Source of the DNA: a virus
Reading direction: 5' to 3' (one strand)
IMG/VR virus record: IMGVR_UViG_3300042535_000023
Location: 1 to 64,000 of that record
Length of the DNA: 64,000 nucleotides
The notes under the pieces are model-generated. The model was not told where the DNA came from. It saw only the letters and a list, made by a program, of their open reading frames with translations, and did no database searches. Numbering within the stretch: the stretch's first letter is position 1; every line of letters starts with the position of its first letter. Below are positions 16,373 through 30,128 of the stretch, piece by piece. Both the position numbers and the translations under genes were made by a program.

Positions 16373-16894
16373 TTAATTCTCTAATTCATTTGTCTGTCTC
16401 GACACAATCTCCGCCATTACTAAATCACAAAGTTCACTTAATACTCCCATACCACTTATTGAACTTAAAACAAAAGAAGCATACTTCTTTATAACATCTA
16501 CACTATCCAATGGACAGATAGATAAAGGTATCATTTGAACACACTCTAAGTCTGAATAAGTGCTGCCTATAAATAGAACTTCGTCTGGTGTCACGCTGTA
16601 GTATTGTAATATCTGAACTATAACGTCCTTCTTTTTCTTCTGCGCCCAATAAAATGGGATACACTTTTTTCTGAATAAGTTGTAGGATATAGCGTTATCT
16701 GAAGACATAAAAACAAACTTAAACCCTTTCTTAAGCTCATTAATAGCCTCAAAATCCTTTAGATGATAAGTTTTAAAAGGAACATTCTGTAACTCATCAT
16801 AGTTTACTAAGCCTTCTGTTATTATACCATCAACTTCAGAAATAATCAACTTAATTTTCTTCATTTTCTCTAAAAACTCTTTCATACTATTCAC
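16373..16894 (-). CDS. KdsC/YrbI-like HAD protein with degenerate catalytic motifs
   Basis: IKLIISEVDGIITEG (canonical DVDGVLTDG), FIGSTYSD (canonical GDDxxD). Confidence 0.8.
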   Translation of the reverse strand: MNSMKEFLEKMKKIKLIISEVDGIITEGLVNYDELQNVPFKTYHLKDFEAINELKKGFKFVFMSSDNAISYNLFRKKCIPFYWAQKKKKDVIVQILQYYSVTPDEVLFIGSTYSDLECVQMIPLSICPLDSVDVIKKYASFVLSSISGMGVLSELCDLVMAEIVSRQTNELEN

Positions 16895-17699
16895 CTCTAA
16901 GTGTTGGCCCGTACTCCTTTAATTTCTCAAGTTGCTGTTTCAATGGTGGTATGTCTAACTTAGGAGCACTATAAATAGAAGATAAAGTCCTATCACATTT
17001 CACAATAGTTTTATATTCATTAACTACAACATCCAAACTAAAAACGTCTGAAATTAATTTTGTTAGTTCATATTTATTAAATGAATCTGGAGAATGGAGG
17101 TGCTTCACTCCTTCCCAATATAAATTTTCTTTTATTATTATATCACAAATCTTTGCAAATGTCAAGCAAGTTATACCATTCCAAAAATGATTTGTATATC
17201 CATTAACTGTTTTACCTTCATTACTTTTTACCCACTCAAGTAAAGATACTTTATTTCTAAGCTCCTCCCCTATAATAGATGTCCTTATGACGCAACAGTT
17301 ATCTGGCTCTCCTAAAGATTTTGTTCTTCCATAAATATCGATGGCATCATGCAAAGACTCTTCATTATATGCACCTTTAGCGCCCGAAAAAACACAGTCG
17401 GTAGTGACGTGAATGAATTTAGCCCCAACATGTTCACAATGGTTTGCTACCCTCCAAGGAAAAGCAGAGTTTGCTAAAATAAAATCTACTGGATTAATTT
17501 TATTTCTTTGTTTTATTACTCCTATACAGTTAATAACCACATCCCCTTTAACTATAGAAGTAAAACTATTACCTCGTACTTTGGTAGCATCTACCATCTT
17601 CCTTGTTACACCAACAACATCATATTTTTTTAAAGAATTTAGATATGTAAAAACATATCTCCCTAACATACCTGTGCTACCTAATACAAATATTCTCAT
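16887..17699 (-). CDS. RmlD-like NDP-4-keto-6-deoxysugar reductase (SDR)
   Basis: GSTGMLG, VINCIG, TTDCVFSG, YGRTKSLGE. Confidence 0.9.
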   Translation of the reverse strand: MRIFVLGSTGMLGRYVFTYLNSLKKYDVVGVTRKMVDATKVRGNSFTSIVKGDVVINCIGVIKQRNKINPVDFILANSAFPWRVANHCEHVGAKFIHVTTDCVFSGAKGAYNEESLHDAIDIYGRTKSLGEPDNCCVIRTSIIGEELRNKVSLLEWVKSNEGKTVNGYTNHFWNGITCLTFAKICDIIIKENLYWEGVKHLHSPDSFNKYELTKLISDVFSLDVVVNEYKTIVKCDRTLSSIYSAPKLDIPPLKQQLEKLKEYGPTLRGE

Positions 17700-18712
17700 A
17701 ATAAAAACCCTCCGTCTGACAGTAACTGCGCCAAAAATTCATAATCTTTTATATCATCTGAAGAAGAAAAGTCTTTAAAAGTTGTCTTAGTAAGACCTAC
17801 AACATGTTCGTAATCCCTATTAATATTCAACTCAGGAAGTATAACATAATAATCATCGTCAAAAATGTAGGTTCTTGGCGCCTCATGCTCTGATACCAAT
17901 ACCTCATCCATCTTTTCCCCCTCTCTTATACCTATTTCTTTTATAGATGTATTTTTATTTCCGTAGTGTTTTATTAAAACTTCAGCAAGAGTCTCTATAA
18001 AAAATGCTGGCATATTCATCACGTATGTTTCACCACCAACACTTTTTTCAGTGGCTTTAAAAAGTAAAGTAATAGCTTCAGGAAGAGTCAAAAAGAATCT
18101 GGTCATCTTTCCTGATGTAACAGTAATTTCATTAAACCTTTTTATCTGATCTATAAATAAAGGCACTACACTACCATTAGACCCCAGCACGTTACCACCA
18201 CGAATACAAACAAAATCGGTGTCGTCAGTTAAATTATTAGCCTGAATAACTATCTTCTCTCCTACAGCCTTAGTAAAACCATATAGATTGGTTGGAGCTA
18301 CCGCTTTGTCCGTACTAACATCAATAAACTTTTTAATCTTATGTCTAATAGCAGCATTAACCAGATTGGTGGTTCCTATTATATTAGTTTTAATGGCCTC
18401 TTGGGGTTGATTCTCACACACAGGGACATGTTTTAAGGCGGCCAAATGATATACATAATCTATACCACGTTCGAATACCCTCTCTACAGCATCGGCATCT
18501 CTAACATCACCTATAATAAACTCTATTCGTTTATCTTTGAACTTACGCTCCATAACTACTTGAGCAAGTTCTCCCCTTGAAAATATAATAATTTTCTTTG
18601 GGTCTTTTTCAAGTAACTGCTTGGTTAGTTCGTTTCCCCAGCTCCCAGACCCACCACTTAAAAGGATTACCCTATTTTTAAACATTATTATTTCTCCTAA
18701 TTTAATTTCCAT
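17696..18712 (-). CDS. UDP-GlcNAc 4,6-dehydratase (FnlA/CapE/PseB-like)
   Basis: GGSGSWG, FSRGE, GDVRD, HLAALKHVP, STDKAVAPTNLYGFTK, RGGNVLGSNGSVVP, MTRF, GIREGEK. Confidence 0.93.
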   Translation of the reverse strand: MEIKLGEIIMFKNRVILLSGGSGSWGNELTKQLLEKDPKKIIIFSRGELAQVVMERKFKDKRIEFIIGDVRDADAVERVFERGIDYVYHLAALKHVPVCENQPQEAIKTNIIGTTNLVNAAIRHKIKKFIDVSTDKAVAPTNLYGFTKAVGEKIVIQANNLTDDTDFVCIRGGNVLGSNGSVVPLFIDQIKRFNEITVTSGKMTRFFLTLPEAITLLFKATEKSVGGETYVMNMPAFFIETLAEVLIKHYGNKNTSIKEIGIREGEKMDEVLVSEHEAPRTYIFDDDYYVILPELNINRDYEHVVGLTKTTFKDFSSSDDIKDYEFLAQLLSDGGFLL

Positions 18713-19326
18713 AGGGACATTTGTTTATTATGCCCAGCATCATAATATCTCCATACATCTTCGTCATGTACTTCTAATGGCGCGCCAAGATTAAAAGGCT
18801 CTATCTCCAAATTAATATGCTTATAACCAGCTTCGACTGCTAATTCTTGTTTAGTTAACTCCCTGTTGACTTTTAACCAATTATGCTCGGTAGCTAGTAG
18901 GTATTTAGAACCACTTGCATAAAAATTCTTTAGGGCGCTTGAAACAAAAGAGTTAGGTAAATGAAAAAGACAATCCCTACATATAATTAAGTCTGTTTTT
19001 GGTAGCAATTCATTAACCATATCCAACTCAACGAAAGATATATTAGGATAAGTATCTAAATTTCTTTTTATAGCCAAATCATTTATATCATACCCTGTAT
19101 AAACTACATTTGTCAAATCCACAAGGTGCATCCAATTCTCAAACAACCCACAAGGGCAATCACTGATAGATTTTATGCCATATTTTTTAATTATACTATT
19201 TATAAACTCTATAGTTCCTGCCTGTTTAACTTGCTCAGGTTCGCTTCCAGGACCACAAGAACATCTACCATTACTCACCTCAAGATTGTAATGATATTTA
19301 AAAGTTTCTTTATTTTTTATACCCAT
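18697..19326 (-). CDS. Class I SAM-dependent methyltransferase
   Basis: SCGPGS, SISDCPCG, YTGYDI, DLIICRDCLFHL. Confidence 0.8.
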   Translation of the reverse strand: MGIKNKETFKYHYNLEVSNGRCSCGPGSEPEQVKQAGTIEFINSIIKKYGIKSISDCPCGLFENWMHLVDLTNVVYTGYDINDLAIKRNLDTYPNISFVELDMVNELLPKTDLIICRDCLFHLPNSFVSSALKNFYASGSKYLLATEHNWLKVNRELTKQELAVEAGYKHINLEIEPFNLGAPLEVHDEDVWRYYDAGHNKQMSLWKLN

Positions 19327-19895
19327 TATAACACCAATTCATTTAAAATTTGCTCAATAGCATAGGTCCTTTGCTCTGCCACGCATTCATAAAAACCCTT
19401 TTTATTGATCTCTTCTAATTTCTGAATAAGGTATTTCTCCACACGATCACTAAGTGCTTGACAAGAATCAGTCATATGTTGGGACCTATCATTAACACGG
19501 AAGTCTTCACGCTTAATAGTCTCTATAGAAAGTCTATCCATCATTTCCCCAATACTGTAGACTACATCGTCGCTGACCCAAGATATTGCTTCTGTAGGTT
19601 CTTTAACAGACTTAACCGTAGCAATATATTTATTAATATGAGCTTTAGACGCAACACGATATTCCCCTACTGACCTGGCAACCCACTCTAAATCTGCTAT
19701 TAATTTATTATCTACAGTGTCTTTTTTACGCTCAGCTATCACAAGTGCATTCGCTTTATAGCAACGAAAATTAGCGTCAGCAAGAATCTCTACAAACTCC
19801 ATAATTCTTTGGGTCTCTTCAGCTGAAAAATGGTTGTTAAAAATACTTTCTACGTGTTCAAAAAATGGTTTAAAATCTATAGTTTCTAATATCAT
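19326..19895 (-). CDS. DUF4254-like helical protein
   Basis: SIGEMMDRLSIETIK signature and C-terminal G.....EQRTY resemble DUF4254, a family seen near glycosyltransferases. Confidence 0.6.
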   Translation of the reverse strand: MILETIDFKPFFEHVESIFNNHFSAEETQRIMEFVEILADANFRCYKANALVIAERKKDTVDNKLIADLEWVARSVGEYRVASKAHINKYIATVKSVKEPTEAISWVSDDVVYSIGEMMDRLSIETIKREDFRVNDRSQHMTDSCQALSDRVEKYLIQKLEEINKKGFYECVAEQRTYAIEQILNELVL

Positions 19896-19897
19896 AC

Positions 19898-20465
19898 TTA
19901 TCTCTCCTTTATAGCTAAAAATGCGGGACCAAATATAAATATTTCGTAGCCCCTTTCTTTATAAAAATCAGGCCAAAGACTAATCAAATGTTTTTGGTGA
20001 ACATTGCCAGTTTTTTTTCATACAGGAATCATTACCACTTTCTCCTATAGGACCACCAATTATTGCGTACTTACTAAATGAATTTTCTATAAGTTCAAAA
20101 ACAATATCGTGAGCCTCTTGTGTTAAATGCTCTAACATATGATGACATAAAACAACATCATACTTCTTTTCTGGCTTAAAGTCAAGTATATTCATACATA
20201 AATACTCACCTTCAGGCCCATTATTTTTTCTCCAGTCAACATCTTTTTCAAATATATCTATACCTGTTATAGCTTTACCATTAAAAACATTAAATAAAAT
20301 ATCATAATTGTGAAAATTATCTATAGGCTGTCCATCAAAAGAACTACTTCCTAAATCCAAAACTGTAGTTATATTAGAAGAACTTATTTTATCTTTTAAT
20401 GTCTTTATCACTTGTTTAATTGGCCAGGTGTTATCTTTTGGTGCTTCAACTTTCTTTCTCCTCAT
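19898..20465 (-). pseudogene. SAM-dependent methyltransferase interrupted by a single-base frameshift in an A8 run
   Basis: VLDLGS, GIDI, YDVVLCHHMLEHL; removing one A at 20011-20018 restores KKTGNVHQKHLISLWPDFYKERGY...KER* ending at 19898, 2 nt before the next ATG. Confidence 0.8.
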
Positions 20466-20474
20466 AAAAATCTC

Positions 20475-21230
20475 CTATTCTTGCGCCATATTTTTAGCAT
20501 CTTCTGGTCTGCTACCACTTCTGCGCTCTACTGCCTCATGATGATATACTATAGAGGATCTACTCATGGTAAAATGGGCCCCTGCTCTACTACAGCGACC
20601 AAAGAATCGTGCGTCAGGAGTATCCCCACCTCTGAATATCAGTTCCCAAGGACCAGCTATTTCCCAATATTTTTTTGGAATAAGATAGGGCATAGTATTA
20701 GTGGCCTTCCATCCTCCACGCTCTTCTTCAGAAACTAATCTATCCTCAAATATCCTATCATACATTTCAAGGAACCCAACTATATTAAATTTTCCATATT
20801 CAGGTATACCAAAATCGGCAGTATCAATATTTGGTCCTCTAATGGGGGAGATGTGTGCGGAATTAACTATATCATTTTCATTAGCGTACTTTACAAGATT
20901 CAATAACCAATCCTTACCGAAATACATATCAGTATTAACTAAACCACAGTAATTATTTAGTTTAAACCCATAATCAAAACCACAATTCATCATGCCCCTT
21001 AGATTAGGCACGTAAGGAACAGCGTGATTTGTTTTATACTCAACGATATGTACATTACTATGCTTAGTCTTTAAATCAATTAAATAATCAGAAACCTCTT
21101 TTGTTGGTCCCCAAGTTACAACAATATAGTCAAAATTATCATAACCAGAATTAATAAGAATAGCATCTGTCGAAAAACGTAACATCTCAAATGCTGTTGA
21201 AACACAATTAAAAATAGACACTCTTTCCAT
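20475..21230 (-). CDS. GT2-like glycosyltransferase
   Basis: GT-A pattern: NCGF...LVNTDMYFGKDWL, AGPW, D..F..R, IVYH. Confidence 0.75.
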   Translation of the reverse strand: MERVSIFNCVSTAFEMLRFSTDAILINSGYDNFDYIVVTWGPTKEVSDYLIDLKTKHSNVHIVEYKTNHAVPYVPNLRGMMNCGFDYGFKLNNYCGLVNTDMYFGKDWLLNLVKYANENDIVNSAHISPIRGPNIDTADFGIPEYGKFNIVGFLEMYDRIFEDRLVSEEERGGWKATNTMPYLIPKKYWEIAGPWELIFRGGDTPDARFFGRCSRAGAHFTMSRSSIVYHHEAVERRSGSRPEDAKNMAQE

Positions 21231-21241
21231 AATTAGCTCCT

Positions 21242-21859
21242 TTAATACATATTTTTAAATAAATCTTGTTGAGGGTTAATAAAAGTAGTGATTTCTTTTA
21301 TTTTTTGGGCTACAGCCCACATAACTATGCTAGGCTGAGTAGGACTAAAAACTGAAGGTATTGATACTTCTTCTCCTGAAAGTCCGCTAACTTTAAAGTA
21401 TAACACTTCAAAACCATTACTACTAAGGGCGACTTTAATTACCTCAGGACTAAAGGCGTAAAAACCATGCTGATATAGACCATTAGCTACGGTATGCAAC
21501 ATATAAAAACCGCCTAGTTTTATCATACTAAAACTTGTTGCTAAAACCTGTTTAACATCGAACACGTGTTCTATTGTACCTATATCAATAACTGCATGAT
21601 ATTTATTAACATGCTCTATAGGTGCTGGATTATTAAGATCAAAATTATAATTAGCAGACTTATCGAATAAATCTAGAGTATAAGCCTCTATCTCTTTCTT
21701 CTTTCTAAACCAATCAGCAAAATCATATACCCCTTTATACCTATCTGGCATTTTTTGTTCGGCTACATTTTTATGAACACCATATATTAATACAGGGCCC
21801 TCAGTAATGTAATTAAACATCTCATCGTAATACTTAAAATAGTCTGGGCTCATTGTCAT
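21242..21859 (-). CDS. Methyltransferase-fold protein
   Basis: LDL...DLN...YHAVIDIGTIEHVFD...GG...HGFYAFSP. Confidence 0.75.
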   Translation of the reverse strand: MTMSPDYFKYYDEMFNYITEGPVLIYGVHKNVAEQKMPDRYKGVYDFADWFRKKKEIEAYTLDLFDKSANYNFDLNNPAPIEHVNKYHAVIDIGTIEHVFDVKQVLATSFSMIKLGGFYMLHTVANGLYQHGFYAFSPEVIKVALSSNGFEVLYFKVSGLSGEEVSIPSVFSPTQPSIVMWAVAQKIKEITTFINPQQDLFKNMY

Positions 21860-21862
21860 TTT

Positions 21863-22531
21863 TTATATACCATAACCTAAAATTTTAATATAATTTTCTA
21901 ACTCTGGGGTAAGTACTTCTTTAACTCTTTCAATATGTTCTTCTTTTTTCCAATTATTTATAGAGTTTTTATCTATAGGTCTAGGTGAATTTAACGACTG
22001 ATTTTTTTTCAATTTTGCTTGAGGTAAATTATAAAAATTATTAAAAGTGTCGTTAAAAGGGCAGCCTATAAAATCAGAAACTCTACTTAATTCCGCTCTA
22101 GGATCTTCTACTAAATTCTCATATCTAACAAATATTACATTAGTATTATCTAAGTTATCAACATAGCATTGACTACCAGTAATGATTCTTTCAGGCTCCA
22201 CCCAGTAAATACTTGGATTAAATTTGTGCCTCGATACTAAAACATCTAAAGGATGCCTTACCATAAATATAATTTTATACCCGTATTGTTCTGTTAGAAG
22301 TCTACAAGTGTACTCTGGTGTAAATATGTCTGAATAGCCTATAGGTTGCTTTATAACAAAATATTTATAAGTATTCGGGACAACAACCCTACCAGGCCTT
22401 TCTAAAGGGTGGCGCTCCTCTTTAGAAAAAACAAAACAATCGTCAAAATAAGTCATAAGTAAACACATCATAGTTGTGCCTGCCCTAGGAAACCCACTTA
22501 TAAATACACCAGGTTTTCTAACTCTACCCAT
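21863..22531 (-). CDS. Sulfotransferase
   Basis: GFPRAGTT (5'-PSB), MVRHPLDVLVS (3'-PB), VRYENLVEDP. Confidence 0.88.
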   Translation of the reverse strand: MGRVRKPGVFISGFPRAGTTMMCLLMTYFDDCFVFSKEERHPLERPGRVVVPNTYKYFVIKQPIGYSDIFTPEYTCRLLTEQYGYKIIFMVRHPLDVLVSRHKFNPSIYWVEPERIITGSQCYVDNLDNTNVIFVRYENLVEDPRAELSRVSDFIGCPFNDTFNNFYNLPQAKLKKNQSLNSPRPIDKNSINNWKKEEHIERVKEVLTPELENYIKILGYGI

Positions 22532-22535
22532 TAAA

Positions 22536-23902: not shown

Positions 23903-23903
23903 A

Positions 23904-24974: not shown

Positions 24975-24976
24975 TT

Positions 24977-25801
24977 TTAACTCCTTATAAGTCTATTAGT
25001 GATCACTTTATAATCTGGAGATGCCGACTTAATTTCATATAAACTCTTATTTAACTGCTCTTTGGCTCTAAGATTAGGAATTTGTTCTAAGGACGAGGTG
25101 TGATATTGATGCAAACAAAACGGTGACGCAACCATCTCTATATCCATATTCTTTTTAACTATACGCATAGCAAAATCAGTATCATCGTAAGCAAAACCGT
25201 TAGCATACTCCTCATCGAAACCACCCAAATCATATAGGTCCTCTTTAGTTATAGCTGTAAGGAAATTAAAAAAGCATTTTCTATATTCTGGATGAGAAAA
25301 CCAGGACTCAAATCTACTACCTTCATCGCAACTACGAGGTAAAAAGCCACCTAAAGCGCTGCTCACGTTTGTTACTAACTCTTCTATTGAAGTATTTAGA
25401 TTGATTTGTCGAAGTTTGTTGGTCGAAGCTTGTCCAAGCGAGTAGCACGCAAAAACCAGATACTTATTAAGAGTTAGTTTATCATTTACATAACTAAGTA
25501 CGTCACCCATATTAACACACTCCGGGTTTTGTATAATTATATAATCACCTTTGGCCTGGCTAAAACCAATATTAAAAGGTACACAAGGATTAGTCCAAGT
25601 TTTTTCTTTAGGATTTATTCTTATCAATTTGATAAAGGGATATAGTGACGCAAAATCTTCTATCCGATGCTCATCATCACTGGCATCATCCACTAGCACA
25701 TACTCAAAGTCTTTGAAATTAGAAGCTTTTATAGACATGATGGAACGCCACAGCAAGTCTTTCCTATTATAATAGGCTGATACTATAGATATTTTAGGCA
25801 T
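24977..25801 (-). CDS. GT2 glycosyltransferase with GT7-like C-terminal motif
   Basis: ISIVSAYYNR, VDDASD, NIGFSQAKGD, GGFDEEYANGFAYDDTDF, HQYH. Confidence 0.88.
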   Translation of the reverse strand: MPKISIVSAYYNRKDLLWRSIMSIKASNFKDFEYVLVDDASDDEHRIEDFASLYPFIKLIRINPKEKTWTNPCVPFNIGFSQAKGDYIIIQNPECVNMGDVLSYVNDKLTLNKYLVFACYSLGQASTNKLRQINLNTSIEELVTNVSSALGGFLPRSCDEGSRFESWFSHPEYRKCFFNFLTAITKEDLYDLGGFDEEYANGFAYDDTDFAMRIVKKNMDIEMVASPFCLHQYHTSSLEQIPNLRAKEQLNKSLYEIKSASPDYKVITNRLIRS

Positions 25802-25810
25802 ATAATTCCT

Positions 25811-26689
25811 TTATTCTAATACCAAAGTTCCATCCCAGGCATCGATCTCTGGAATAAATTCTGTGTAGTCAGTGTATGTACCATCTAACGCAGATAAAAG
25901 TTCAGCGTTAAACATATTCTCTTCTAAAAATTTAATCCTATCTTCAAAGGTAGATAAATTTTCAGGGAATTTACCGCCGTGCCTATTGAAGCCAAAAAAT
26001 CCTATATGTAATAGTCTATTACACACAGAGGAGTAACCCCTTACCCCATTTTTATATGAAGTATAATCAACCAAACGATTCATCAGCCCGTCCCAATCAA
26101 GATGAGTAAAAGCACCTCTCTCTTTATTATATTTAGCATTGGGATTATTACTGTTCATTAAATTAATTTTATGAATAGTAGCCGTCCAATTTTTATAATA
26201 ATCAACAGTAGCGTGTTCTAACATGTAATTATTAAAAAAGTTTTTATTTATCATTACTCCTGGGCCATTTGAATAATCGGTAGTTCTAAGTATAGAAGGG
26301 CTTCCCGTATTATTGTAACCCCAACTTGTTATTACAGAGTAATTACCATTAGTTAATTTATGAGCTTTATTTACAAATTCAAAATAAGTTTTATGTAAAA
26401 TAAGGTCGTCTTCCATATTTATAACGTACTCTATATCCTGACTAAAGGCCTGCTTTAAAGCTTCCATAATATTAGCACATACCCCATATCTAACTTTACG
26501 TTGCATTACTATCTTTTTAAAAGGATAGGCATCCACTATTTCAAGACATTTTGGATCTGCTCCTCCCTCAATTGCAAATAACGTTGTATAGTCGTCATCA
26601 GGAAAATACTCCCTTGCTATAGTCTCATATTTAATTGAAAGTTGCAACATCTCAGGTCTATTAAACAAAGGCCTTAAAATTATATTCAT
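25811..26689 (-). CDS. GT-A fold glycosyltransferase
   Basis: PLFNRPEML, MEDDLIL, DWDG, RLLHIG. Confidence 0.7.
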   Translation of the reverse strand: MNIILRPLFNRPEMLQLSIKYETIAREYFPDDDYTTLFAIEGGADPKCLEIVDAYPFKKIVMQRKVRYGVCANIMEALKQAFSQDIEYVINMEDDLILHKTYFEFVNKAHKLTNGNYSVITSWGYNNTGSPSILRTTDYSNGPGVMINKNFFNNYMLEHATVDYYKNWTATIHKINLMNSNNPNAKYNKERGAFTHLDWDGLMNRLVDYTSYKNGVRGYSSVCNRLLHIGFFGFNRHGGKFPENLSTFEDRIKFLEENMFNAELLSALDGTYTDYTEFIPEIDAWDGTLVLE

Positions 26690-26698
26690 TCTGTCTCC

Positions 26699-27817
26699 TT
26701 ATAATACTTCTTCTATCTCAGAAATTAATCTTTTGCCTATGGCTTCGTAAGAGAAATTTTCTCTAATATATGATTGGAGTTTTAATCCTTTTTCTTTTGC
26801 CTGGGCTTGATTTTCAAATACTTCTCTCATAAGTCTGGAGGCATGCTCCTGATCAGCATTGGCCCACATTTGATCTCCACGGTGCCAAGGACTGTAGGGC
26901 ATACCAAAAGCAAACTCTTTAGTAAAATCAACAAGGTAGGAATTATCTGGTTTTGCATACTCTGTGCTACCGCCCCAACCTGTTAAAATAATAGGTTTGC
27001 CAAAAGATCCAGCTGTCAGAGGACCGATACCAACCCCCTCACCTTTATCAAGGGATATATAACAATCAAATCTTGAATGTAATGCTTTTACTTGGTTATC
27101 AGATAGCATGTCCAATATTAAGTATATTGGTGGATAATAATCTAAAGGAGAAAAATTCTTCATTCTTTTTATAGTGTCTCTAATTACATTCTTCTCTACA
27201 TCACTAAAATCATTTCTATATGTCTTAAGGACTAGGGCTACATTATCTTCTTTTTTAAATGTTGCCCAATAAGTTTTAAGAAGACCGCCAGGATTCTTTT
27301 TTTCAACCCACTGAAAGATGTCTCCAAAAACAAAAGTATCATCTGATAACCCTGATATTTTATAGTTATCTATATTTTTAGGAACATCATCAGCGCAATG
27401 TGAACAAACTCCTACTGGTATTGTCACACCACTATCTTCAAATACTTTCTTTCCCCACTCTGATCCAGTGATAACTTTGTCCAACGTATTAATAAAACCT
27501 GGCCAAGTTGGGAATAAGCGGTCATTCTCCCACACTGTAAAAGCAATAGTTTTTTCAGTCTTTTTTTGATAGATAGGAAAATGTTCTGGGGTAAGTTGAA
27601 TAAAATGGGCATCATAATCATCAAATCTGTTAACTAAACTCCTAAGCAACTCCCCATCTTCCCCTATACTAGGTTTATTCTTTTCAAATGAAATTGGATT
27701 TAATGTTAATTCTACTCCCATTTTATGCATAGCTAACGCATTTTGACGCGAGGCTTTTCCGTAGCCACTTGGGTCAAAAAAAGGAGCAGTAAATTTTAAT
27801 CTTTTAAGCTTTCCCAT
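26699..27817 (-). CDS. GT4 (GT-B) glycosyltransferase
   Basis: SGYGKASR, TVWE, KKN, KGEGVGIGPLTA...GKPIILTGWGG. Confidence 0.88.
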   Translation of the reverse strand: MGKLKRLKFTAPFFDPSGYGKASRQNALAMHKMGVELTLNPISFEKNKPSIGEDGELLRSLVNRFDDYDAHFIQLTPEHFPIYQKKTEKTIAFTVWENDRLFPTWPGFINTLDKVITGSEWGKKVFEDSGVTIPVGVCSHCADDVPKNIDNYKISGLSDDTFVFGDIFQWVEKKNPGGLLKTYWATFKKEDNVALVLKTYRNDFSDVEKNVIRDTIKRMKNFSPLDYYPPIYLILDMLSDNQVKALHSRFDCYISLDKGEGVGIGPLTAGSFGKPIILTGWGGSTEYAKPDNSYLVDFTKEFAFGMPYSPWHRGDQMWANADQEHASRLMREVFENQAQAKEKGLKLQSYIRENFSYEAIGKRLISEIEEVL

Positions 27818-27827
27818 CTATAACTCC

Positions 27828-28721
27828 TTAATTAGTAAACTCTTTTCCACAATTAGAACAAATCCATTTACCTTCATACATAATAGCATTTCCACCACAT
27901 TTATCACAATAACGTGAATAATCATAATTAACCATAGGTTTGTCTCCTTCTGATTTTAGAGCTTCCGCTTTTACTTTCTTTCGCCCGCAGCAACGGCTTT
28001 TTGCTTCTGGACAGTATCCCAACATCTCACATCTACTATCAACCTTATTAAATACACAAGGAAGCTTTAGTCTACAAATACGTAACATCTCTTTGGCTAA
28101 ATTTCTAATTTCCCATTGGGCGGCCGTGCAAAGTCTCAGGCTAAGAAAATGTGTCAAACTAACACAATTCATGGTGATAACTATACGAGTAGTAACTCCA
28201 TTAGGCATAACATAACGAGCGTCTTCGCTAGGGATTCCTAAGGCTTTAAGCTGATTATATGCTTTTTGAATTTCTTCTAAGATATTCACATAAATATTGA
28301 GTGCTTTAGCATCTGCGTTGCCCTCATTCTTTTCATTATCAACTATGCTTGGCGGAAAAACGTAATCGCTAAGCATAAACTCCCCAGCATTGCTCACATA
28401 ACGTTGTGACTGCTGAGAGTAACTCGCTATACGGTGACGCACTAACTGATGGCTAAGGGCACGAGAGATGCCATCTACAGCAAATGTAAACTTAACATGT
28501 TCAAATACTGAGGTGTGTCCTGATGTATGGAGATGCTTTAAAAGATTGTCCATCTCTTTATCAGTAGAGGGCTCATTCTTTTCGAGGTCCATAACTGTTA
28601 CTAAACCAGTTTCATCCTCCTGCCACATATCACCTGTCCAACCATCTGCGTAACACTGTCTAGCCGACGCAAAGATTAACTCCTTAGCATTGGGTGTCAT
28701 TGATAATAATTTAACTCTCAT
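27828..28721 (-). CDS. thyX: FAD-dependent thymidylate synthase with C-terminal Zn-ribbon
   Basis: GHTSVFEH, RHRIASYSQQSQRY (RHRx7SxR), EDARYVMPN, AQWEIR. Confidence 0.96.
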   Translation of the reverse strand: MRVKLLSMTPNAKELIFASARQCYADGWTGDMWQEDETGLVTVMDLEKNEPSTDKEMDNLLKHLHTSGHTSVFEHVKFTFAVDGISRALSHQLVRHRIASYSQQSQRYVSNAGEFMLSDYVFPPSIVDNEKNEGNADAKALNIYVNILEEIQKAYNQLKALGIPSEDARYVMPNGVTTRIVITMNCVSLTHFLSLRLCTAAQWEIRNLAKEMLRICRLKLPCVFNKVDSRCEMLGYCPEAKSRCCGRKKVKAEALKSEGDKPMVNYDYSRYCDKCGGNAIMYEGKWICSNCGKEFTN

Positions 28722-28762
28722 ATGTAATCCTCCTTAATTCAGATTAATGTTCTACTACACTT

Positions 28763-28834
28763 TAGCGGAGGGTAGATTCGAACTACCGTGCTCAAGTTTA
28801 TGGGACTTGGGAGAAACCCCTTCTCTACTCCGCA
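28763..28834 (-). tRNA. tRNA with CAT anticodon (Met, initiator-like but atypical); CCA not encoded
   Basis: Cloverleaf: T-GCGGAG/CTCCGC-T acceptor, GAGA/TCTC D-stem, CAAGT-CCCATAA-ACTTG anticodon arm, GGTAG-TTCGAAT-CTACC T-arm. Confidence 0.88.
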
Positions 28835-28844
28835 ACAAAACTTT

Positions 28845-30128
28845 TTAGAAGGTTTCAGCTTCGATTACTTTGTTTGTGTTTTCTATTGTAACATTTTTCT
28901 TTGGGTTTGTCAAGTTTAAATAAGCATTGTCAAAAGCATTGACCCAGGCTTGTCCAATCTTGCCCTGCCAATCAAGTTCACTACGAACCCAGTTATAAGC
29001 CGTCTCTGCTTTTTTGGCTGCTTCCTCTCTATTATAATAGACGTGAAGCATTTTGTCAACCATATCCTCAACATCAACAAGAGGGCGACGCACTTCATTA
29101 TCATTTGGAAGAACGGTCCAAAGGCTTGGATTTGTTCCACTTTTTACAAGATAGCCTTTGTCTTCAGTAATGAACTCAGTCATAGCTGTATTATTTGGCA
29201 TAATAACTGGTGTCTTTGTGGCCATGGATTCTACCCACTGAAGACCAAAACCCTCACCAAGATTTGTGCTAACAGAAACGTCAGCACAGTTATAGAGTGC
29301 ATTAACGATATTTTTCGGATACCCAGAATTAACTGAAAAATTCTCTGGGAAAATAACATCCTCAGAAGTGCTTAGCCCAAATGAACGGCATACTTCTAAA
29401 AGATTCCAGCCCTGATCCTTCTGTGCCATATGTAAGTAAAGAATTGAGTCTTTAACTTGCTTCCGAAACTCTACAAATGCTTGAATAGTTCGTGGAATAT
29501 CCTTACGTTGCTGATTACGATTAAGGTTCATAACAATAAACTTGTCCGCATGCTTACCAAAATACTGCTTCTTAAATGGCATTAACTTCTCTTTAGGAAT
29601 AACATTATAGTCATTAAGATTAACACCATGAGGAATTACTTTAATATCTTCAAGAGATGGTAGGGCTTTGATAGCTTCAGCCTTACCATGCTCAGTATAA
29701 GCAAAAATTTCATCAGCATAACTAATGTTAACTGCCCACTCCGGCTTTAAAATAGAGTCCACTGGAAAATAAACTATTGATCGGAACGGTTTCTTCATAT
29801 TCTGTTTTAAATGTGGCATTAGTTCTGGAAGGAAGTCCATAATAAAAGTGTCCTGCAGAAGAAATAAAATATCAAAATCCATTCTTGGGGTCATTTGGCA
29901 GAATTTTCTCCTACCATAAGGATCCCTCTCTCCATTTGTACCAGCCGGGAAAATCTTATATGGAAATTCATGAGGGTCGCCCCAGTAATTAATACCAAAA
30001 TTACTAATCTCATAACGACCTGTCCTGTGCAAAGCCTCGAAAATATTACGAGAAACTGTTGAAAACCCTGTTGCGCTTGTTGGGCTGTCCATATAGGCCC
30101 ATACTTTAATTTTTTTGTCCATAAACAT
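28845..30128 (-). CDS. GT4 (GT-B) glycosyltransferase
   Basis: DSP..ATGF, IPHGV, NRNQQRKD, LYNCADV, GEGFGLQWVESMATKTPVI. Confidence 0.9.
   Translation of the reverse strand: MFMDKKIKVWAYMDSPTSATGFSTVSRNIFEALHRTGRYEISNFGINYWGDPHEFPYKIFPAGTNGERDPYGRRKFCQMTPRMDFDILFLLQDTFIMDFLPELMPHLKQNMKKPFRSIVYFPVDSILKPEWAVNISYADEIFAYTEHGKAEAIKALPSLEDIKVIPHGVNLNDYNVIPKEKLMPFKKQYFGKHADKFIVMNLNRNQQRKDIPRTIQAFVEFRKQVKDSILYLHMAQKDQGWNLLEVCRSFGLSTSEDVIFPENFSVNSGYPKNIVNALYNCADVSVSTNLGEGFGLQWVESMATKTPVIMPNNTAMTEFITEDKGYLVKSGTNPSLWTVLPNDNEVRRPLVDVEDMVDKMLHVYYNREEAAKKAETAYNWVRSELDWQGKIGQAWVNAFDNAYLNLTNPKKNVTIENTNKVIEAETF

What the first reader, a model, noticed from the sequence alone, without database searches (positions are those of the whole stretch)
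16373..30128. Phage-encoded, fully cytoplasmic glycan assembly island: candidate virion glycosylation system
Seen: about 14 kb of contiguous co-oriented genes encoding six glycosyltransferases (GT2 x2, GT32-like, another GT-A, GT4 x2), four SAM methyltransferases, a sulfotransferase, three nucleotide-sugar enzymes, DUF4254 and a KdsC-like protein, placed inside the replication module. None has an evident transmembrane segment, and the window has no flippase, polymerase, ligase or undecaprenyl-phosphate transferase. Established: serotype-converting loci such as gtrABC need membrane proteins, whereas chloroviruses and mimiviruses glycosylate their own capsids or fibrils with soluble enzymes, and some mycobacteriophages glycosylate virions with a few GTs. 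Inference: this phage builds a multi-sugar, methylated and sulfated glycan on a cytoplasmic acceptor, most plausibly its virion proteins (see the T-x-S-G finding).
Basis: partly seen in the sequence, partly recalled or inferred. Interest (0 to 1): 0.88.

Follow-up and report, generated by a model that had tools for sequence, protein, structure and literature searches.

The report
Swappable sugar-coat locus in giant phages
An uncultured giant phage carries about 14 kb of membrane-free sugar-building enzymes: two are kept in nearly all sampled relatives and the rest are swapped between them, and they probably decorate the phage's own tail proteins, though that target is not proven.

Summary
Window 16373-30128 carries 17 co-oriented genes: six glycosyltransferases, four methyltransferase-like proteins, a sulfotransferase, a three-enzyme UDP-6-deoxy-HexNAc route, a DUF4254-like protein and a KdsC-like HAD protein.

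The contig is a 31%-complete piece of a ~265-kb phage and is collinear with a complete 268.8-kb relative. In 80 related IMG/VR loci the same slot lies between a PD-(D/E)XK nuclease and the clamp loader or PolA. It opens with two conserved GT4 enzymes. The 427-aa one is the best-conserved gene in the neighbourhood (median 59.5% identity). The 372-aa one carries inteins in some relatives. A hypervariable cassette follows: 533 ORFs fall into 193 clusters.

No multipass membrane protein occurs in the cassettes or in two complete relatives. The closest complete relative lacks the ThyA-family and C5-methylase DNA-acceptor routes; Tet/JBP was also not found, but that search was uninformative.

T-x-S-G is 3.6-5.3-fold enriched in tail and baseplate proteins of three lineage members.

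Virion-protein glycosylation is the best reading (about 0.5), but the acceptor is unproven. The scan has already noted similar islands on other DNA, including relatives of this lineage.

The parts
28845..30128 (-). GT4L: 427-aa soluble GT4 (GT-B) glycosyltransferase. It is the conserved first gene of the locus and the proposed priming enzyme.
   Evidence: Pfam Glycos_transf_1 41.6 bits. 951 homologues were found, and the best 120 are 59-70% identical. Median identity is 59.5% in 73 related loci, the highest of the neighbourhood. The AF2 model has pLDDT 81.2, and its top PDB match is the chlorovirus NY-2A putative GT 3oy2. E292 and E300 are invariant in A1.
28762..28835 (-). tRNA-Met (CAT) in the gap between GT4L and ThyX. 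It is probably not part of the glycan system.
   Evidence: ARAGORN.
27828..28721 (-). ThyX, an FAD-dependent thymidylate synthase with a Cys-rich C-terminal extension. It is an occasional insert in the locus, not a core part.
   Evidence: TIGR02170 193.3 bits against cut-off 87.9. The RHR..S....S motif is present (the motif label is recalled). ThyX sits at this position in only 5 of 75 related loci.
26699..27817 (-). GT4s: 372-aa GT-B protein, the conserved second gene of the locus. It may be a partner of GT4L.
   Evidence: phrog_2170 E 4.5e-20. It is present in 48 of 52 loci that have at least 3.5 kb after GT4L, at median 45.8% identity. Homologues carry intein/LAGLIDADG inserts at three sites. 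The second Glu of the GT4 E-x7-E signature is absent (the signature is recalled). Complex prediction gives weak support: 0.54 against best control 0.00.
25811..26689 (-). GT2b: 292-aa GT-A-like glycosyltransferase (cassette).
   Evidence: Glycos_transf_2 22.3 bits, just under the 23.3 cut-off. Homologues occur in 15 related loci at 31-57% identity.
24977..25801 (-). GT2a: 274-aa GT2 glycosyltransferase (cassette).
   Evidence: Glycos_transf_2 45.6 bits and Glyco_transf_7C 29.9 bits.
23904..24974 (-). Non-hydrolysing UDP-HexNAc 2-epimerase (WecB type).
   Evidence: Epimerase_2 251.9 bits. TIGR00236 220.3 against cut-off 210.15. 65% identical in G001.
23036..23902 (-). GT32-like 288-aa glycosyltransferase (weak assignment).
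   Evidence: Caps_synth E 0.0067 and Gly_transf_sug E 0.0095, both below cut-offs. The sequence contains a D-x-D.
22536..23063 (-). 175-aa methyltransferase-like protein (weak).
   Evidence: Methyltransf_23 23.4 bits against cut-off 27.
21863..22531 (-). 222-aa PAPS-type sulfotransferase.
   Evidence: Sulfotransfer_1 55.7 bits against cut-off 22. An N-terminal P-R-A-G-T-T loop is seen (the motif name is recalled). Sulfotransferases occur in 9 of 150 cassette cluster representatives of relatives.
21242..21859 (-). 205-aa protein, possibly a methyltransferase (very weak).
   Evidence: Methyltransf_12 E 0.021.
20475..21230 (-). 251-aa GT2-like glycosyltransferase.
   Evidence: Pfam E 0.083 only. 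ESM-Atlas feature score 0.98 to GT2 clusters. 63% identical in G001 and 74% in L047.
19980..20465 (-). 161-aa SAM methyltransferase.
   Evidence: Methyltransf_11 27.6 bits against cut-off 21.2.
19326..19895 (-). 189-aa DUF4254-like protein of unknown function.
   Evidence: No Pfam hit at E<=0.01. Atlas features 0.82 and structure TM 0.67 to DUF4254 clusters. 61-72% identical in 11 loci, where it sits next to the 2-epimerase.
18697..19326 (-). 209-aa methyltransferase.
   Evidence: phrog_3382 E 1.4e-37.
17696..18712 (-). UDP-GlcNAc 4,6-dehydratase of the inverting PseB/FnlA/CapE class.
   Evidence: Polysacc_synt_2 320.5 bits. PseB 303.5 and FnlA 250.7 bits, both below equivalog cut-offs. The best solved relative is 4j2o, a UDP-GlcNAc 4,6-dehydratase/5-epimerase, at 247.4 bits.
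16887..17699 (-). 270-aa RmlD-like 4-reductase.
   Evidence: RmlD_sub_bind 69.2 bits. Weak PDB matches to dTDP-4-dehydrorhamnose reductases.
16373..16894 (-). 173-aa KdsC-like HAD-fold protein. It is the conserved end gene of the locus, next to the clamp loader, and is probably not an active phosphatase.
   Evidence: KdsC model 61.4 bits against cut-off 208. Motif I reads S-E-V-D-G, with Glu in place of the nucleophile Asp, in the window and in 4 of 4 homologues examined. 46-60% identical in L012, L022, L040 and G001.

Best explanation
The region is this phage's allele of a glycan locus shared by a widespread lineage of uncultured jumbo phages of about 235-300 kb. The locus has a fixed frame. 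After the PD-(D/E)XK nuclease come two conserved soluble GT4 enzymes, of 427 aa and 372 aa. At the far end a degenerate HAD-fold protein abuts the clamp loader; in the distant branch the locus abuts PolA.

Between these ends lies a cassette that differs from phage to phage. Here it has four GT-A type glycosyltransferases, four methyltransferase-like proteins, a PAPS-type sulfotransferase, a DUF4254-like protein and a three-enzyme route. That route runs dehydratase, then reductase, then 2-epimerase, from UDP-GlcNAc to a UDP-2-acetamido-2,6-dideoxy-L-hexose.

Proposed mechanism:
1. In the infected cytoplasm, without a lipid carrier or export, the 427-aa GT4 puts a first sugar on Thr/Ser of phage tail, baseplate and fibre proteins. 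It may work together with the 372-aa GT4. The favoured sites are T-x-S-G.
2. The cassette enzymes extend this into a short hetero-oligosaccharide.
3. They then methylate and sulfate it.

The result would be a lineage-variable 'glycotype' on the particle.

Shown: gene content, frame conservation, cassette hypervariability, absence of membrane or export genes, absence of two known DNA-acceptor routes in the closest complete relative, and the motif enrichment.

Inferred: the acceptor, the order of steps, and the identity of the sugars.
For: 1. The frame and core are conserved.
- 95 of 100 pattern matches in IMG/VR encode GT4L relatives, and 80 loci were kept.
- The order DnaB, u131, DnaJ, RuvC, PD-(D/E)XK, GT4L, GT4s, cassette, then HAD/clamp loader or PolA recurs.
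- GT4L has median 59.5% identity (n=73). That compares with 49.3% for UvsX-like, 45.1% for DnaB and 41.3% for the nuclease.
- GT4s is present in 48 of 52 loci with enough sequence.

2. GT4s homologues carry inteins at three different sites. Inteins usually sit in conserved, indispensable proteins (established knowledge).

3. The cassette is hypervariable.
- 533 downstream ORFs of 75 loci fall into 193 clusters, 110 of them singletons.
- Locus span ranges from 5.4 to 20.1 kb.
- Among 150 cluster representatives the census gives GT2 10, methyltransferases about 10, sulfotransferase 9, GT1 9, epimerase/dehydratase 7, DegT 4 and hexapeptide transferases 3.

4. No export machinery is encoded.
- 0 of 533 cassette ORFs have more than 2 TM-like segments.
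- 0 of 314 ORFs in complete G001 and 0 of 407 in complete G004 have more than 2.

5. Known DNA-acceptor chemistry is missing.
- There is no ThyA-family gene in G001, G002 or G003.
- There is no C5 DNA methylase in 5 of 5 records, with controls ringing in 9 of 14 genomes.
- The window has a canonical ThyX plus dUTPase and RNR.

6. T-x-S-G is enriched in structural blocks.
- Own structural block: 44 observed against 8.3 +/- 2.7 expected, while seven permuted or neighbouring motifs stay within about two standard deviations of expectation, at 0.7 to 1.6 times it.
- G001: 34 against 8.7 +/- 3.1.
- G004, which has 50% GC and GT4L at 48% identity: 31 against 8.7 +/- 3.0.
- The T4 control reaches only 12 against 6.2.
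- An outlier elsewhere in G001 is tail-fibre-like, with 9 against 0.86.
- 13 of 38 own sites are kept in G001 orthologues with x free.

7. More distant GT4L homologues (25-36% identity) sit in or next to structural or packaging modules in 3 of 4 cultured phage groups examined: S-CBS4, TJE1 and Kitkat, but not S-EIVl.

8. Close GT4L relatives are essentially phage-only. There are 3 hits in 185,579 species genomes, all on 2.9-8.9-kb MAG contigs of unrelated taxa.

9. The GT4L-GT4s pairing has weak support only.
- Score 0.54, best of 3 controls 0.00.
- The mark was reached by 58 of 80 solved complexes and 2 of 110 mismatched pairs. At 0.60 or under it was reached by only 7 of those 80 and by both mismatches that passed.
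- The runs agree in at least 56% of contacts, and partner pLDDT is at least 88.
Against: - No direct evidence for any acceptor exists.
- The locus lies in the replication module, not among structural genes. One distant homologue (S-EIVl) also sits next to a primase.
- T-x-S-G could be a structural beta-strand/turn motif of this lineage's fibre and baseplate folds. In G004 it recurs inside an internal repeat of a 1152-aa protein, which holds 15 sites. A third of sites are positionally conserved.
- S-CBS4 (20 against 9.1) and TJE1 (6 against 2.6) carry GT4L homologues, but their enrichment is no greater than in the T4 control. The motif is therefore not tied to the GT4L family outside this lineage.
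- The fold search does not discriminate. After the chlorovirus GT come BshA, MshA, HepE, PimA and PglA, which use small-molecule or lipid-linked acceptors.
- The Tet_JBP search was uninformative because its control was silent.
- TM prediction was a crude hydropathy scan, and ORFs were called by a simple longest-ORF rule.
- Several of the 80 loci are near-duplicates of each other, so locus counts overstate independence.
Confidence: 0.5

Rival explanations
1. Host-envelope remodelling. The soluble phage glycosyltransferases act at the inner face of the membrane on the host's undecaprenyl-linked O-antigen, capsule or glycoprotein precursors. The host's own flippase, polymerase and ligase then export the altered glycan. 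This would change the cell surface, for example to block superinfection or to stop progeny re-adsorbing.
For: - The gene content looks like a bacterial surface-polysaccharide locus, and the cassette is hypervariable like host glycan islands.
- Lack of TM segments is normal for O-antigen GTs (established knowledge).
- The fold neighbours PimA and PglA act on lipid-linked acceptors.
- Published authors read GT-rich hypervariable islands of pelagimyophages this way, as a suggestion (PMC7029224; passages read).
Against: - GT4L is the most conserved gene of the neighbourhood, and GT4s carries inteins. That fits a function the phage itself needs rather than an accessory exclusion trait.
- No initiating transferase, flippase or polymerase is seen among 533 cassette ORFs or in two complete genomes. 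A wholly new multi-sugar unit would therefore have to pass host exporters that are often substrate-specific.
- Close GT4L relatives were not found in cellular chromosomes.
- This reading does not explain the T-x-S-G enrichment.
Confidence: 0.2
2. DNA hypermodification. The two conserved GT-B enzymes in the replication module glycosylate a modified base in phage DNA, as T-even, RB69-type or MT/TET-dependent systems do. The cassette then extends the DNA-linked glycan.
For: - The locus sits in the replication module next to a nuclease, polymerase accessory genes and, here, ThyX.
- DNA glycosyltransferases of T4 are GT-B enzymes (established knowledge).
- Phage GTs related to LPS enzymes do put mono- to trisaccharides on 5hmC (10.1101/2023.12.21.572611; abstract read).
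- Poly-arabinosylated 5-hydroxycytosine exists (PMC13326640; abstract read).
- Diversifying selection by restriction systems could also drive cassette turnover.
Against: - All three described routes need a ThyA homologue or a C5-methylase plus a TET-type dioxygenase.
- The complete closest relative G001, and also G002 and G003, have no ThyA-family gene.
- No C5 DNA methylase was found in 5 of 5 records.
- The ThyA genes of G004 and G005 score 362-405 bits to the family model. I take this to indicate ordinary thymidylate synthases; that is an inference.
- The window's ThyX is canonical and is present at this position in only 5 of 75 loci.
- Methylated and sulfated glycans on DNA have no precedent known to me (recall).
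- dUTPase, RNR and an N6/N4 DNA methylase paired with an IceA-like nuclease point to ordinary bases. This argument is weak.
Confidence: 0.08
3. Another soluble acceptor. The glycan is built on a non-virion phage or host protein, on a small molecule (as BshA and MshA do), or as a free cytoplasmic oligosaccharide or metabolite.
For: - The nearest solved bacterial folds, BshA and MshA, use small-molecule acceptors.
- Nothing in the data fixes the acceptor.
- The locus is not next to structural genes.
Against: - A hypervariable multi-enzyme cassette with sulfation and methylation is typical of exposed glycans under diversifying selection (established knowledge for bacterial O-antigens), and less so of an intracellular metabolite.
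- This reading does not explain the virion-specific motif.
Confidence: 0.15
4. Artefact. The island is cellular DNA joined to a phage contig by misassembly.
For: The gene content resembles bacterial polysaccharide loci.
Against: - GC and skew are uniform across the window.
- The contig is collinear with a complete 268.8-kb phage, including the island's end genes.
- The same slot is occupied in 75 related viral loci.
Confidence: 0.01

Closest known systems
Mycobacteriophage virion glycosylation (Freeman et al. 2023, Cell Host Microbe). I know it only through its citation and a one-sentence description in PMC12619734. The paper itself is not held.
   Same: Both have phage-encoded soluble glycosyltransferases with no export machinery, and the proposed acceptor is the phage's own structural proteins.
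   Different: As cited, the glycans there sit at the C-termini of capsid and tail-tube subunits, and few GTs are involved (the number is recalled). Here the locus has 17 genes, lies in the replication module, and has a conserved two-GT4 core plus a hypervariable cassette with sulfation, methylation and its own nucleotide-sugar route. The candidate sites are internal T-x-S-G motifs of tail, baseplate and fibre proteins. Homology to the mycobacteriophage enzymes was not tested.
Autonomous glycosylation of giant viruses: chlorovirus capsid glycans and Megavirinae fibril glycans. Recalled, and mentioned in passages of PMC12906663.
   Same: Both have clusters of soluble GTs, methyltransferases and virus-encoded nucleotide-sugar enzymes, with cluster content that varies between lineages. 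The best solved structural match of GT4L is a chlorovirus NY-2A putative GT, 3oy2, at E 6.8e-20 and TM 0.71/0.77.
   Different: Those viruses infect eukaryotes. Sequence identity to 3oy2 is 15%, and that protein's acceptor is itself unknown. The next hits, BshA and MshA, are nearly as good.
Wzx/Wzy- or ABC-dependent O-antigen and capsule loci of bacteria
   Same: Both have conserved flanks around a hypervariable set of GTs, tailoring enzymes and nucleotide-sugar genes. The dehydratase/reductase/2-epimerase trio is like those that make UDP-L-RhaNAc, L-QuiNAc or L-FucNAc (pathway names recalled; family matches).
   Different: No initiating phosphoglycosyl transferase, flippase, polymerase, ligase or ABC exporter is present in the locus, in 75 related loci, or in two complete relatives.
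Phage DNA glycosylation systems: T4 alpha/beta-GT, the RB69/DLP3 arabinosyl-5hoC system (PMC13326640) and MT/5mYOX-dependent GTs (10.1101/2023.12.21.572611)
   Same: All involve GT-B fold enzymes, placement near replication and nucleotide-metabolism genes, and glycan diversity between phages.
   Different: The ThyA-homologue and C5-methylase routes to the required base were not found in the closest complete relative; the Tet/JBP search was uninformative.
GT-rich hypervariable islands of marine T4-like myophages (pelagimyophages and cyanomyophages, PMC7029224), and the four core GT orthogroups of 'moraphages' (PMC12619734)
   Same: These are also uncultured aquatic large phages with GT-rich variable regions. 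Moraphages are likewise jumbo, carry DnaJ and PolA, carry multiple homing endonucleases, and have GTs in the core genome.
   Different: Those papers list the genes. They offer host O-chain modification, or a list of possibilities, without analysing locus architecture. Whether this phage is a moraphage could not be tested, because their sequences were not at hand.
GtfA-GtfB type priming complex for cytoplasmic O-GlcNAcylation of serine-rich adhesins (recalled)
   Same: Both have two adjacent GT-B proteins. The second lacks part of the catalytic signature, and the pairing has weak predicted support.
   Different: No detectable specific homology was tested. The complex support is weak, and the substrates differ.

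Membership tests
Phage virion glycosylation systems (mycobacteriophage type) | Phage-encoded soluble glycosyltransferases without export genes | tested here: met
   No TM-like segment in the island proteins. No multipass protein in 533 cassette ORFs or in two complete relatives.
Phage virion glycosylation systems (mycobacteriophage type) | GT genes placed within or beside the structural operon | tested here: not met
   The locus lies between the PD-(D/E)XK nuclease and the clamp loader in the replication module. Distant homologues in S-CBS4, TJE1 and Kitkat are in structural or packaging modules.
Phage virion glycosylation systems (mycobacteriophage type) | Glycans demonstrably attached to virion proteins | not testable with these tools
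   This needs glycoproteomics. Only indirect evidence exists: T-x-S-G enrichment in structural blocks.
Phage DNA glycosylation | An enzyme that creates a hydroxylated or hydroxymethylated base: a ThyA homologue, or a C5-methylase plus a TET/JBP dioxygenase | tested here: not met
   PF00303 is absent from G001, G002 and G003. PF00145 is absent from 5 of 5 records. PF12851 is absent, but its control was silent. The window's ThyX is canonical.
Phage DNA glycosylation | A GT-B glycosyltransferase acting on DNA | tested here: inconclusive
   The GT-B fold is confirmed, but no match is specific to DNA GTs. Family pI is mostly 4.9-6.3, which does not discriminate.
Serotype-converting gtrABC / O-antigen modification modules | Membrane proteins GtrA, GtrB and a type-specific Gtr | tested here: not met
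   No protein with more than 2 hydrophobic segments in the contig, G001 or G004.
Wzx/Wzy or ABC-dependent surface polysaccharide locus | Initiating transferase, flippase or exporter, and polymerase or ligase | tested here: not met
   Same hydropathy scans. None of these families appears among the 25 commonest families of the Pfam census of 150 cassette representatives. Rarer families were not listed by that call.
Wzx/Wzy or ABC-dependent surface polysaccharide locus | Conserved flanks around a hypervariable GT, tailoring and nucleotide-sugar cassette | tested here: met
UDP-2-acetamido-2,6-dideoxy-L-hexose pathway (FnlA/WbvB-type dehydratase, reductase, 2-epimerase) | Inverting UDP-GlcNAc 4,6-dehydratase/5-epimerase | tested here: inconclusive
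   Family membership is clear: Polysacc_synt_2 at 320.5 bits and 4j2o at 247.4 bits. The protein is below both the PseB (303.5 against 407.75) and FnlA (250.7 against 730) equivalog cut-offs.
UDP-2-acetamido-2,6-dideoxy-L-hexose pathway (FnlA/WbvB-type dehydratase, reductase, 2-epimerase) | 4-reductase and non-hydrolysing 2-epimerase encoded with it | tested here: met
   RmlD_sub_bind 69.2 bits. WecB equivalog 220.3 against 210.15. The dehydratase and reductase overlap by 4 nt. The product sugar is not determined.
KdsC / YrbI sugar-acid phosphate phosphatases | HAD motif I with a nucleophile Asp (D-x-D; recalled) | tested here: not met
   Motif I reads S-E-V-D-G or S-E-I-D-G, and S-E-V-E-G in G001, in 5 of 5 sequences. 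The score is 61.4 against cut-off 208. No NeuB or CMP-sugar synthetase was found in 5 records.
Moraphages (PMC12619734) | Jumbo aquatic phage with DnaJ, PolA, multiple homing endonucleases and core GTs | tested here: inconclusive
   These features are present: estimated size about 265 kb, DnaJ, PolA, and HNH endonuclease copies scattered in relatives. No sequence comparison with published moraphage genomes was possible.

The most novel reading that the evidence does not exclude
A widespread lineage of giant phages has a two-tier protein-glycosylation system of its own. A near-invariant priming pair of GT-B enzymes recognises a short sequon (T-x-S-G) on tail, baseplate and fibre proteins; the pair may be a heterodimer with one degenerate subunit. 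A horizontally shuffled cassette then writes a phage-specific, often sulfated and methylated glycan. The particles would thus come in 'glycotypes', analogous to bacterial O-serotypes, which tune host recognition or shield the adsorption apparatus.
Probability: 0.3. Interest if true: 0.85.

Novelty: new variant of a known kind. Interest (0 to 1): 0.7.

Why it matters
Virion glycosylation has been demonstrated for only a few mycobacteriophages and for giant viruses of eukaryotes. If this reading is right, an abundant group of aquatic jumbo phages devotes 5-20 kb to a serotype-like, sulfated and methylated glycan coat. That coat would be built entirely in the cytoplasm, started by an enzyme more conserved than the phage's recombinase or helicase, and possibly directed by a four-residue sequon.

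This would give three things:
- a testable sequon-enzyme pair;
- a new source of soluble protein glycosyltransferases and sulfotransferases for glyco-engineering;
- a new variable to consider in phage host range, particle stability and environmental fate.

Even if the acceptor turns out to be the host envelope or DNA, the architecture is a clear comparative result that the literature I could search does not describe. That architecture is an invariant GT4 pair, intein-bearing in some relatives, next to a swappable cassette.

Tried and rejected
- Megablast of the island against 50,697 phage records found no match.
- Single-protein scans of IMG/VR with the clamp loader and the nuclease found no confirmed relative. 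The alignment-based scan succeeded.
- The T-x-S-G test in two cultured phages with GT4L homologues gave S-CBS4 20 against 9.1 and TJE1 6 against 2.6. This looked supportive until the T4 control gave 12 against 6.2, with other S/T/G patterns also raised. I therefore do not count S-CBS4 or TJE1 as support.
- The Tet_JBP search found nothing anywhere, controls included, so it is uninformative.
- Searches for a phage-encoded Kdo or nonulosonate route that would explain the KdsC-like gene (CTP_transf_3, NeuB) were negative in 5 of 5 records. Together with the missing nucleophile, this led me to drop the idea that the HAD protein feeds a sugar-acid pathway.
- Isoelectric points of the GT4 families do not discriminate, because PolA is acidic too.
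- The sigma-70 promoter and terminator scan gave no more sites than shuffles: 67 against 72.9 +/- 8.1, and 5 against 8.1 +/- 3.3.
- A genome-contig scan with the 2-epimerase, run to look for a host or donor, found no relative. The host is not determined here.
- Fold searches of the GT4L model do not separate protein, lipid or small-molecule acceptors.
- I did not run RNA or read mapping, the second structure job, or the representative-library search. None of them would have settled the acceptor.
- Freeman et al. 2023 could not be read.
- Supplementary files of papers were closed. The orthogroup tables of PMC12619734 and the gene-cluster tables of the Pyle preprint might show whether this GT4 family was already catalogued.
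- Literature searches that found no description of this locus architecture are.

Full report
WHAT IS THERE

The window is bases 1-64000 of an 82,191-bp IMG/VR virus record that CheckV rates 31% complete, which implies a genome of roughly 265 kb. Every sizeable ORF is on the minus strand, and GC and skew are uniform.

Region 16373-30128 holds 17 tightly packed ORFs. In transcription order they are:
1. A 427-aa GT4 ('GT4L').
2. After a 123-nt gap containing a tRNA-Met, a canonical ThyX.
3. A 372-aa GT-B protein ('GT4s').
4. Two GT2-type proteins (292 and 274 aa).
5. A WecB-type 2-epimerase.
6. A GT32-like protein.
7. A 175-aa methyltransferase-like protein.
8. A sulfotransferase.
9. A 205-aa possible methyltransferase.
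10. A 251-aa GT2-like protein.
11. A 161-aa methyltransferase.
12. A 189-aa DUF4254-like protein.
13. A 209-aa methyltransferase.
14. A PseB/FnlA-class UDP-GlcNAc 4,6-dehydratase.
15. An RmlD-like reductase.
16. A KdsC-like HAD protein.

About half are strong. The GT32-like protein, one GT2, the 251-aa GT-A and two methyltransferase-like proteins rest on sub-threshold or language-model matches.

No island protein has a hydrophobic 19-mer above 1.6 on the Kyte-Doolittle scale. The flanks are replication genes. It omitted ThyX and the tRNA.

THE REGION IS ONE ALLELE OF A LINEAGE-WIDE LOCUS

GT4L has 951 homologues in the 5.8-billion-protein collection, and the best 120 are 59-70% identical, on contigs up to 276 kb. 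The adjacent clamp loader's best 120 relatives are only 50-63% identical.

An alignment of 15 GT4L sequences retrieved 80 IMG/VR loci with 10-kb flanks. BLASTP of their ORFs against the window's proteins shows a fixed gene order: DnaB, two small ORFs, DnaJ, RuvC, PD-(D/E)XK nuclease, GT4L, GT4s, a block of mostly unmatched genes, and then HAD plus clamp loader, or PolA in the distant branch. ThyX follows GT4L in 5 loci.

Over alignments that cover at least 70% of the window protein, median identities are as follows:

| Protein | Median identity | n |
|---|---|---|
| GT4L | 59.5% | 73 |
| small ORF u131 | 50.0% | 69 |
| UvsX-like recombinase | 49.3% | 63 |
| GT4s | 45.8% | 53 |
| DnaB | 45.1% | 79 |
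| PD-(D/E)XK nuclease | 41.3% | 79 |

GT4s is present in 48 of the 52 loci that extend at least 3.5 kb beyond GT4L.

In some relatives the GT4s gene is 725-1198 aa long. Comparison with the window protein shows inserts of about 350 aa at residues ~171, ~265 or ~309. The Pfam census finds Intein_splicing in 3 and LAGLIDADG_3 in 5 of the 150 cassette representatives.

Downstream of GT4L, 533 ORFs from 75 loci fall into 193 clusters at 30% identity and 60% coverage, and 110 of these are singletons. The span from GT4L to the boundary gene ranges from 5.4 kb to 10.2 kb in the six loci that reach the boundary. It is 13.8 kb here and 20.1 kb in G001.

One representative of each of 150 clusters was scanned against Pfam. 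The commonest families, as counts of 150, were:
- Glycos_transf_2: 10
- Methyltransferase families: 7-10
- Sulfotransfer_1: 9
- Glycos_transf_1: 9
- Epimerase: 7
- GDP_Man_Dehyd: 6
- RmlD_sub_bind: 5
- DegT aminotransferase: 4
- Hexapeptide transferases: 3
- Radical SAM: 3
- ATP-grasp: 3

Several loci are near-duplicates of each other (for example L010/L011 and L013/L014), so these counts are not independent samples. The pattern is still plain: an invariant two-GT4 head, a swappable glycan cassette in which sulfation recurs, and a conserved end gene.

COMPLETE RELATIVES

G001 is 268,764 bp, 100% complete by CheckV, and 34.3% GC. It is collinear with the window's contig from the structural genes through the island to RNR. 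It shares GT4L (63%), ThyX (81%), GT4s (47%), the 2-epimerase (65%), the DUF4254-like protein (68%), the 251-aa GT (63%), the dehydratase (72%), the reductase (66%) and HAD (60%). Other genes lie in between. This excludes a chimeric assembly.

None of its 314 ORFs has more than two hydrophobic segments. The same holds for the 407 ORFs of G004, which is 295,848 bp with terminal repeats, 49.7% GC, and has GT4L at 48% identity. The lineage therefore encodes no flippase-, polymerase- or WecA-like protein. This rests on a crude hydropathy criterion.

TESTING THE DNA RIVAL

The described routes to glycosylated DNA start in one of two ways. One is a ThyA-homologue that makes 5-hydroxymethyl- or 5-hydroxy-pyrimidine nucleotides. 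The other is a C5-cytosine methylase plus a TET-type dioxygenase. I read only the abstracts of PMC13326640 and 10.1101/2023.12.21.572611.

- The ThyA family is absent from G001, G002 and G003. It is present in G004 and G005 at 362-405 bits, which I take to mean ordinary thymidylate synthases.
- C5 DNA methylase is absent from 5 of 5 records, while the control rang in 9 of 14 genomes.
- Tet_JBP was also absent, but its control was silent, so that search says nothing.
- The window's ThyX passes the equivalog cut-off and keeps the ThyX signature.
- dUTPase, RNR and an N6/N4 DNA methylase next to an IceA-like nuclease complete a conventional picture.

I therefore rank DNA glycosylation low. It is not excluded, because an unknown acceptor chemistry is possible.

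THE T-x-S-G MOTIF

Expected counts come from residue shuffles within each protein. The table gives observed against expected counts.

| Protein set | T-x-S-G observed | Expected |
|---|---|---|
| Own contig, structural block (41839 to contig end) | 44 | 8.3 +/- 2.7 (maximum 17 in 100 shuffles) |
| Own contig, non-structural ORFs | 4 | 2.2 +/- 1.6 |
| G001, homologous block | 34 | 8.7 +/- 3.1 |
| G004, homologous block | 31 | 8.7 +/- 3.0 |
| T4, 30 virion proteins (control) | 12 | 6.2 +/- 2.2 |

- In the own contig, S-x-T-G, T-x-T-G, S-x-S-G, G-S-x-T, T-x-S-A, T-x-S-N and T-x-S-D all lie within about two standard deviations of expectation, at 0.7 to 1.6 times it.
- In G001 the excess outside the block comes from further virion-type proteins. 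One is a 733-aa tail-fibre-like protein with 9 sites against 0.86 expected.
- In G004, S-x-T-G and T-x-T-G are mildly raised, at 16 against about 8.6.
- In T4, other patterns are equally raised.

The enrichment in this lineage is therefore specific and survives a 15-point shift in GC.

In 11 orthologue pairs, 13 of 38 window sites align with a site in G001, and the x residue differs. Others are replaced by near-motifs or by unrelated residues.

Two readings remain: a glycosylation sequon, or a fold-specific strand-turn motif. The second is favoured by a G004 fibre protein in which the motif recurs within an internal repeat. It is also favoured by the failure of S-CBS4 and TJE1, which carry GT4L homologues, to exceed the T4 baseline.

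OTHER CLUES TO THE ACCEPTOR

- In cultured phages, GT4L homologues of 25-36% identity sit in varied places. In S-CBS4 the homologue lies between portal and head protease, with a GT2 and a methyltransferase. In TJE1 it lies just upstream of the terminase genes, with a nucleotidyltransferase, an epimerase and a methyltransferase. In Kitkat-type Arthrobacter phages it lies between the tail terminator and the tail chaperones. In S-EIVl it lies next to the primase.
- Close GT4L relatives were found in only 3 of 185,579 species genomes. All three are on short contigs of MAGs from unrelated phyla, which are most simply mis-binned phage DNA.
- The AF2 model of GT4L (pLDDT 81.2) is a GT-B fold. Its best solved match is a chlorovirus putative glycosyltransferase, followed closely by BshA, MshA, HepE, PimA and PglA. 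This does not fix the acceptor.
- GT4L keeps both Glu residues of the GT4 signature, while GT4s lacks the second. The signature itself is recalled.
- A complex prediction for the pair gave weak support: score 0.54, best of 3 controls 0.00. The mark was reached by 58 of 80 solved complexes and 2 of 110 mismatched pairs. At 0.60 or under it was reached by only 7 of the 80 and by both mismatches that passed. The runs agree in at least 56% of contacts, and partner pLDDT is at least 88.

THE SUGAR ROUTE AND THE END GENE

The dehydratase's nearest solved relatives are a UDP-GlcNAc 4,6-dehydratase/5-epimerase (4j2o), CapD, FlaA1 and CapE. With the overlapping RmlD-like reductase and the WecB-type 2-epimerase, this matches the logic of the bacterial routes to UDP-L-RhaNAc, L-QuiNAc or L-FucNAc (recalled). 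The exact product is not determined.

The KdsC-like protein scores far below the KdsC cut-off. It has Glu where HAD phosphatases have the nucleophile Asp, in all five sequences examined. No nonulosonate synthase or CMP-sugar synthetase is encoded in five records. Its role is unknown. It may belong to the replication side of the boundary.

LITERATURE AND EARLIER NOTES

- PMC12619734 (sections 12 and 13 read) describes 'moraphages'. These are aquatic jumbo phages with predicted Bacteroidota hosts, DnaJ/DnaK, many homing endonucleases and four GT orthogroups in the core genome. The paper lists DNA glucosylation, serotype conversion and virion glycosylation as possibilities without choosing. The present phage shares these traits, but I could not compare sequences.
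- PMC7029224 (passages read) reports GT-rich hypervariable islands in pelagimyophages and suggests host O-chain modification.
- I found no paper describing the architecture reported here. Supplements were closed.
- The scan's own notes show that similar islands were flagged on many other genomes. Relatives of this lineage were flagged too, with one follow-up reaching the same 'different sugar genes at the same spot, acceptor not shown' conclusion. I tested the claims I reuse on my own data.

VERDICT

The best-supported statement is architectural. This is a conserved, phage-restricted, membrane-free glycan locus with an invariant GT4 pair and a serotype-like cassette.

My estimates for what it decorates:

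| Acceptor | Estimate |
|---|---|
| Virion tail, baseplate and fibre proteins | about 0.5 |
| Host envelope | about 0.2 |
| Another soluble acceptor | about 0.15 |
| DNA | about 0.08 |
| Artefact | about 0.01 |

It is a new variant of known virus-encoded glycosylation, not a new category. It offers a directly testable enzyme-sequon hypothesis.

Noticed in passing
window 28762-28835 (-): A tRNA-Met (anticodon CAT) lies in the 123-nt gap between GT4L and ThyX. It is the only tRNA ARAGORN finds in the window. An earlier first-reader note calls it chimeric; I did not examine its structure.
   Followed up: partly
window 27828-28721 (-): ThyX keeps the canonical signature but has a C-terminal extension of about 70 residues with two Cys-x-x-Cys pairs, like a zinc ribbon. 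ThyX occupies this slot in only 5 of 75 related loci.
   Followed up: partly
window 16373-16894 (-); L012:20498-20998, L022:19630-20139, L040:18767-19270, G001:254212-254730: The KdsC-like HAD protein has Glu in place of the motif I nucleophile Asp in all five sequences. G001 also has Glu at the second Asp. It is probably a pseudo-phosphatase, conserved beside the clamp loader.
   Followed up: partly
L045:11342-13528, L051:12078-14318, L078:14250-17759: GT4s homologues carry intein-like inserts of about 350 aa with LAGLIDADG features at three different positions. L078 has two of them.
   Followed up: partly
L064:11278-13455: In this minimal 5.4-kb version of the locus, the GT4s domain is the C-terminal half of a 725-aa protein. 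The N-terminal ~360 residues are unidentified.
   Followed up: no
window 1516-2469 (-), and scattered positions in L006, L008, L012, L015, L021-L026, L046-L048, L056, L071, L079, L084 and G001: A 317-aa HNH/CapR-domain endonuclease has 25-46% identical copies at varying places in relatives' loci, including between the nuclease and GT4L and inside cassettes. This is behaviour typical of a mobile homing endonuclease.
   Followed up: partly
window 36970-38363 (-): An IceA-like endonuclease (PF05315) lies next to an N6/N4 DNA methyltransferase. This is a restriction-modification-like pair inside the replication module.
   Followed up: no
G004:7441-10899 (-): A 1152-aa protein has 15 T-x-S-G sites against 1.76 expected. 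Many lie in a recurring T-(V/I)-S-G-H-L-Q or T-(V/I)-S-G-F context, so here the motif is part of an internal repeat.
   Followed up: partly
G004 (whole record) compared with G000 and G001: Members of one collinear phage lineage differ by about 15 points in GC: 49.7% against 34-35%.
   Followed up: no
L120, L121, L122 (genome contigs): Three short contigs (2.9-8.9 kb) in MAGs labelled Saccharibacteria, Woesearchaeota and Altiarchaeales encode GT4L at 50-62% identity. They are most simply phage contigs binned into cellular genomes.
   Followed up: no
window 46243-48999 (-): Three tandem paralogues (294-313 aa, phrog_9600 'tail assembly protein') differ sharply in T-x-S-G count: 5 in the middle copy, at least 1 in the 294-aa copy, the 301-aa copy not examined.
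   Followed up: partly
window 32552-33334 (-): A full-length DnaJ homologue (J domain, Cys-rich domain and C-terminal domain) lies in the replication module and is conserved in 60 related loci.
   Followed up: no
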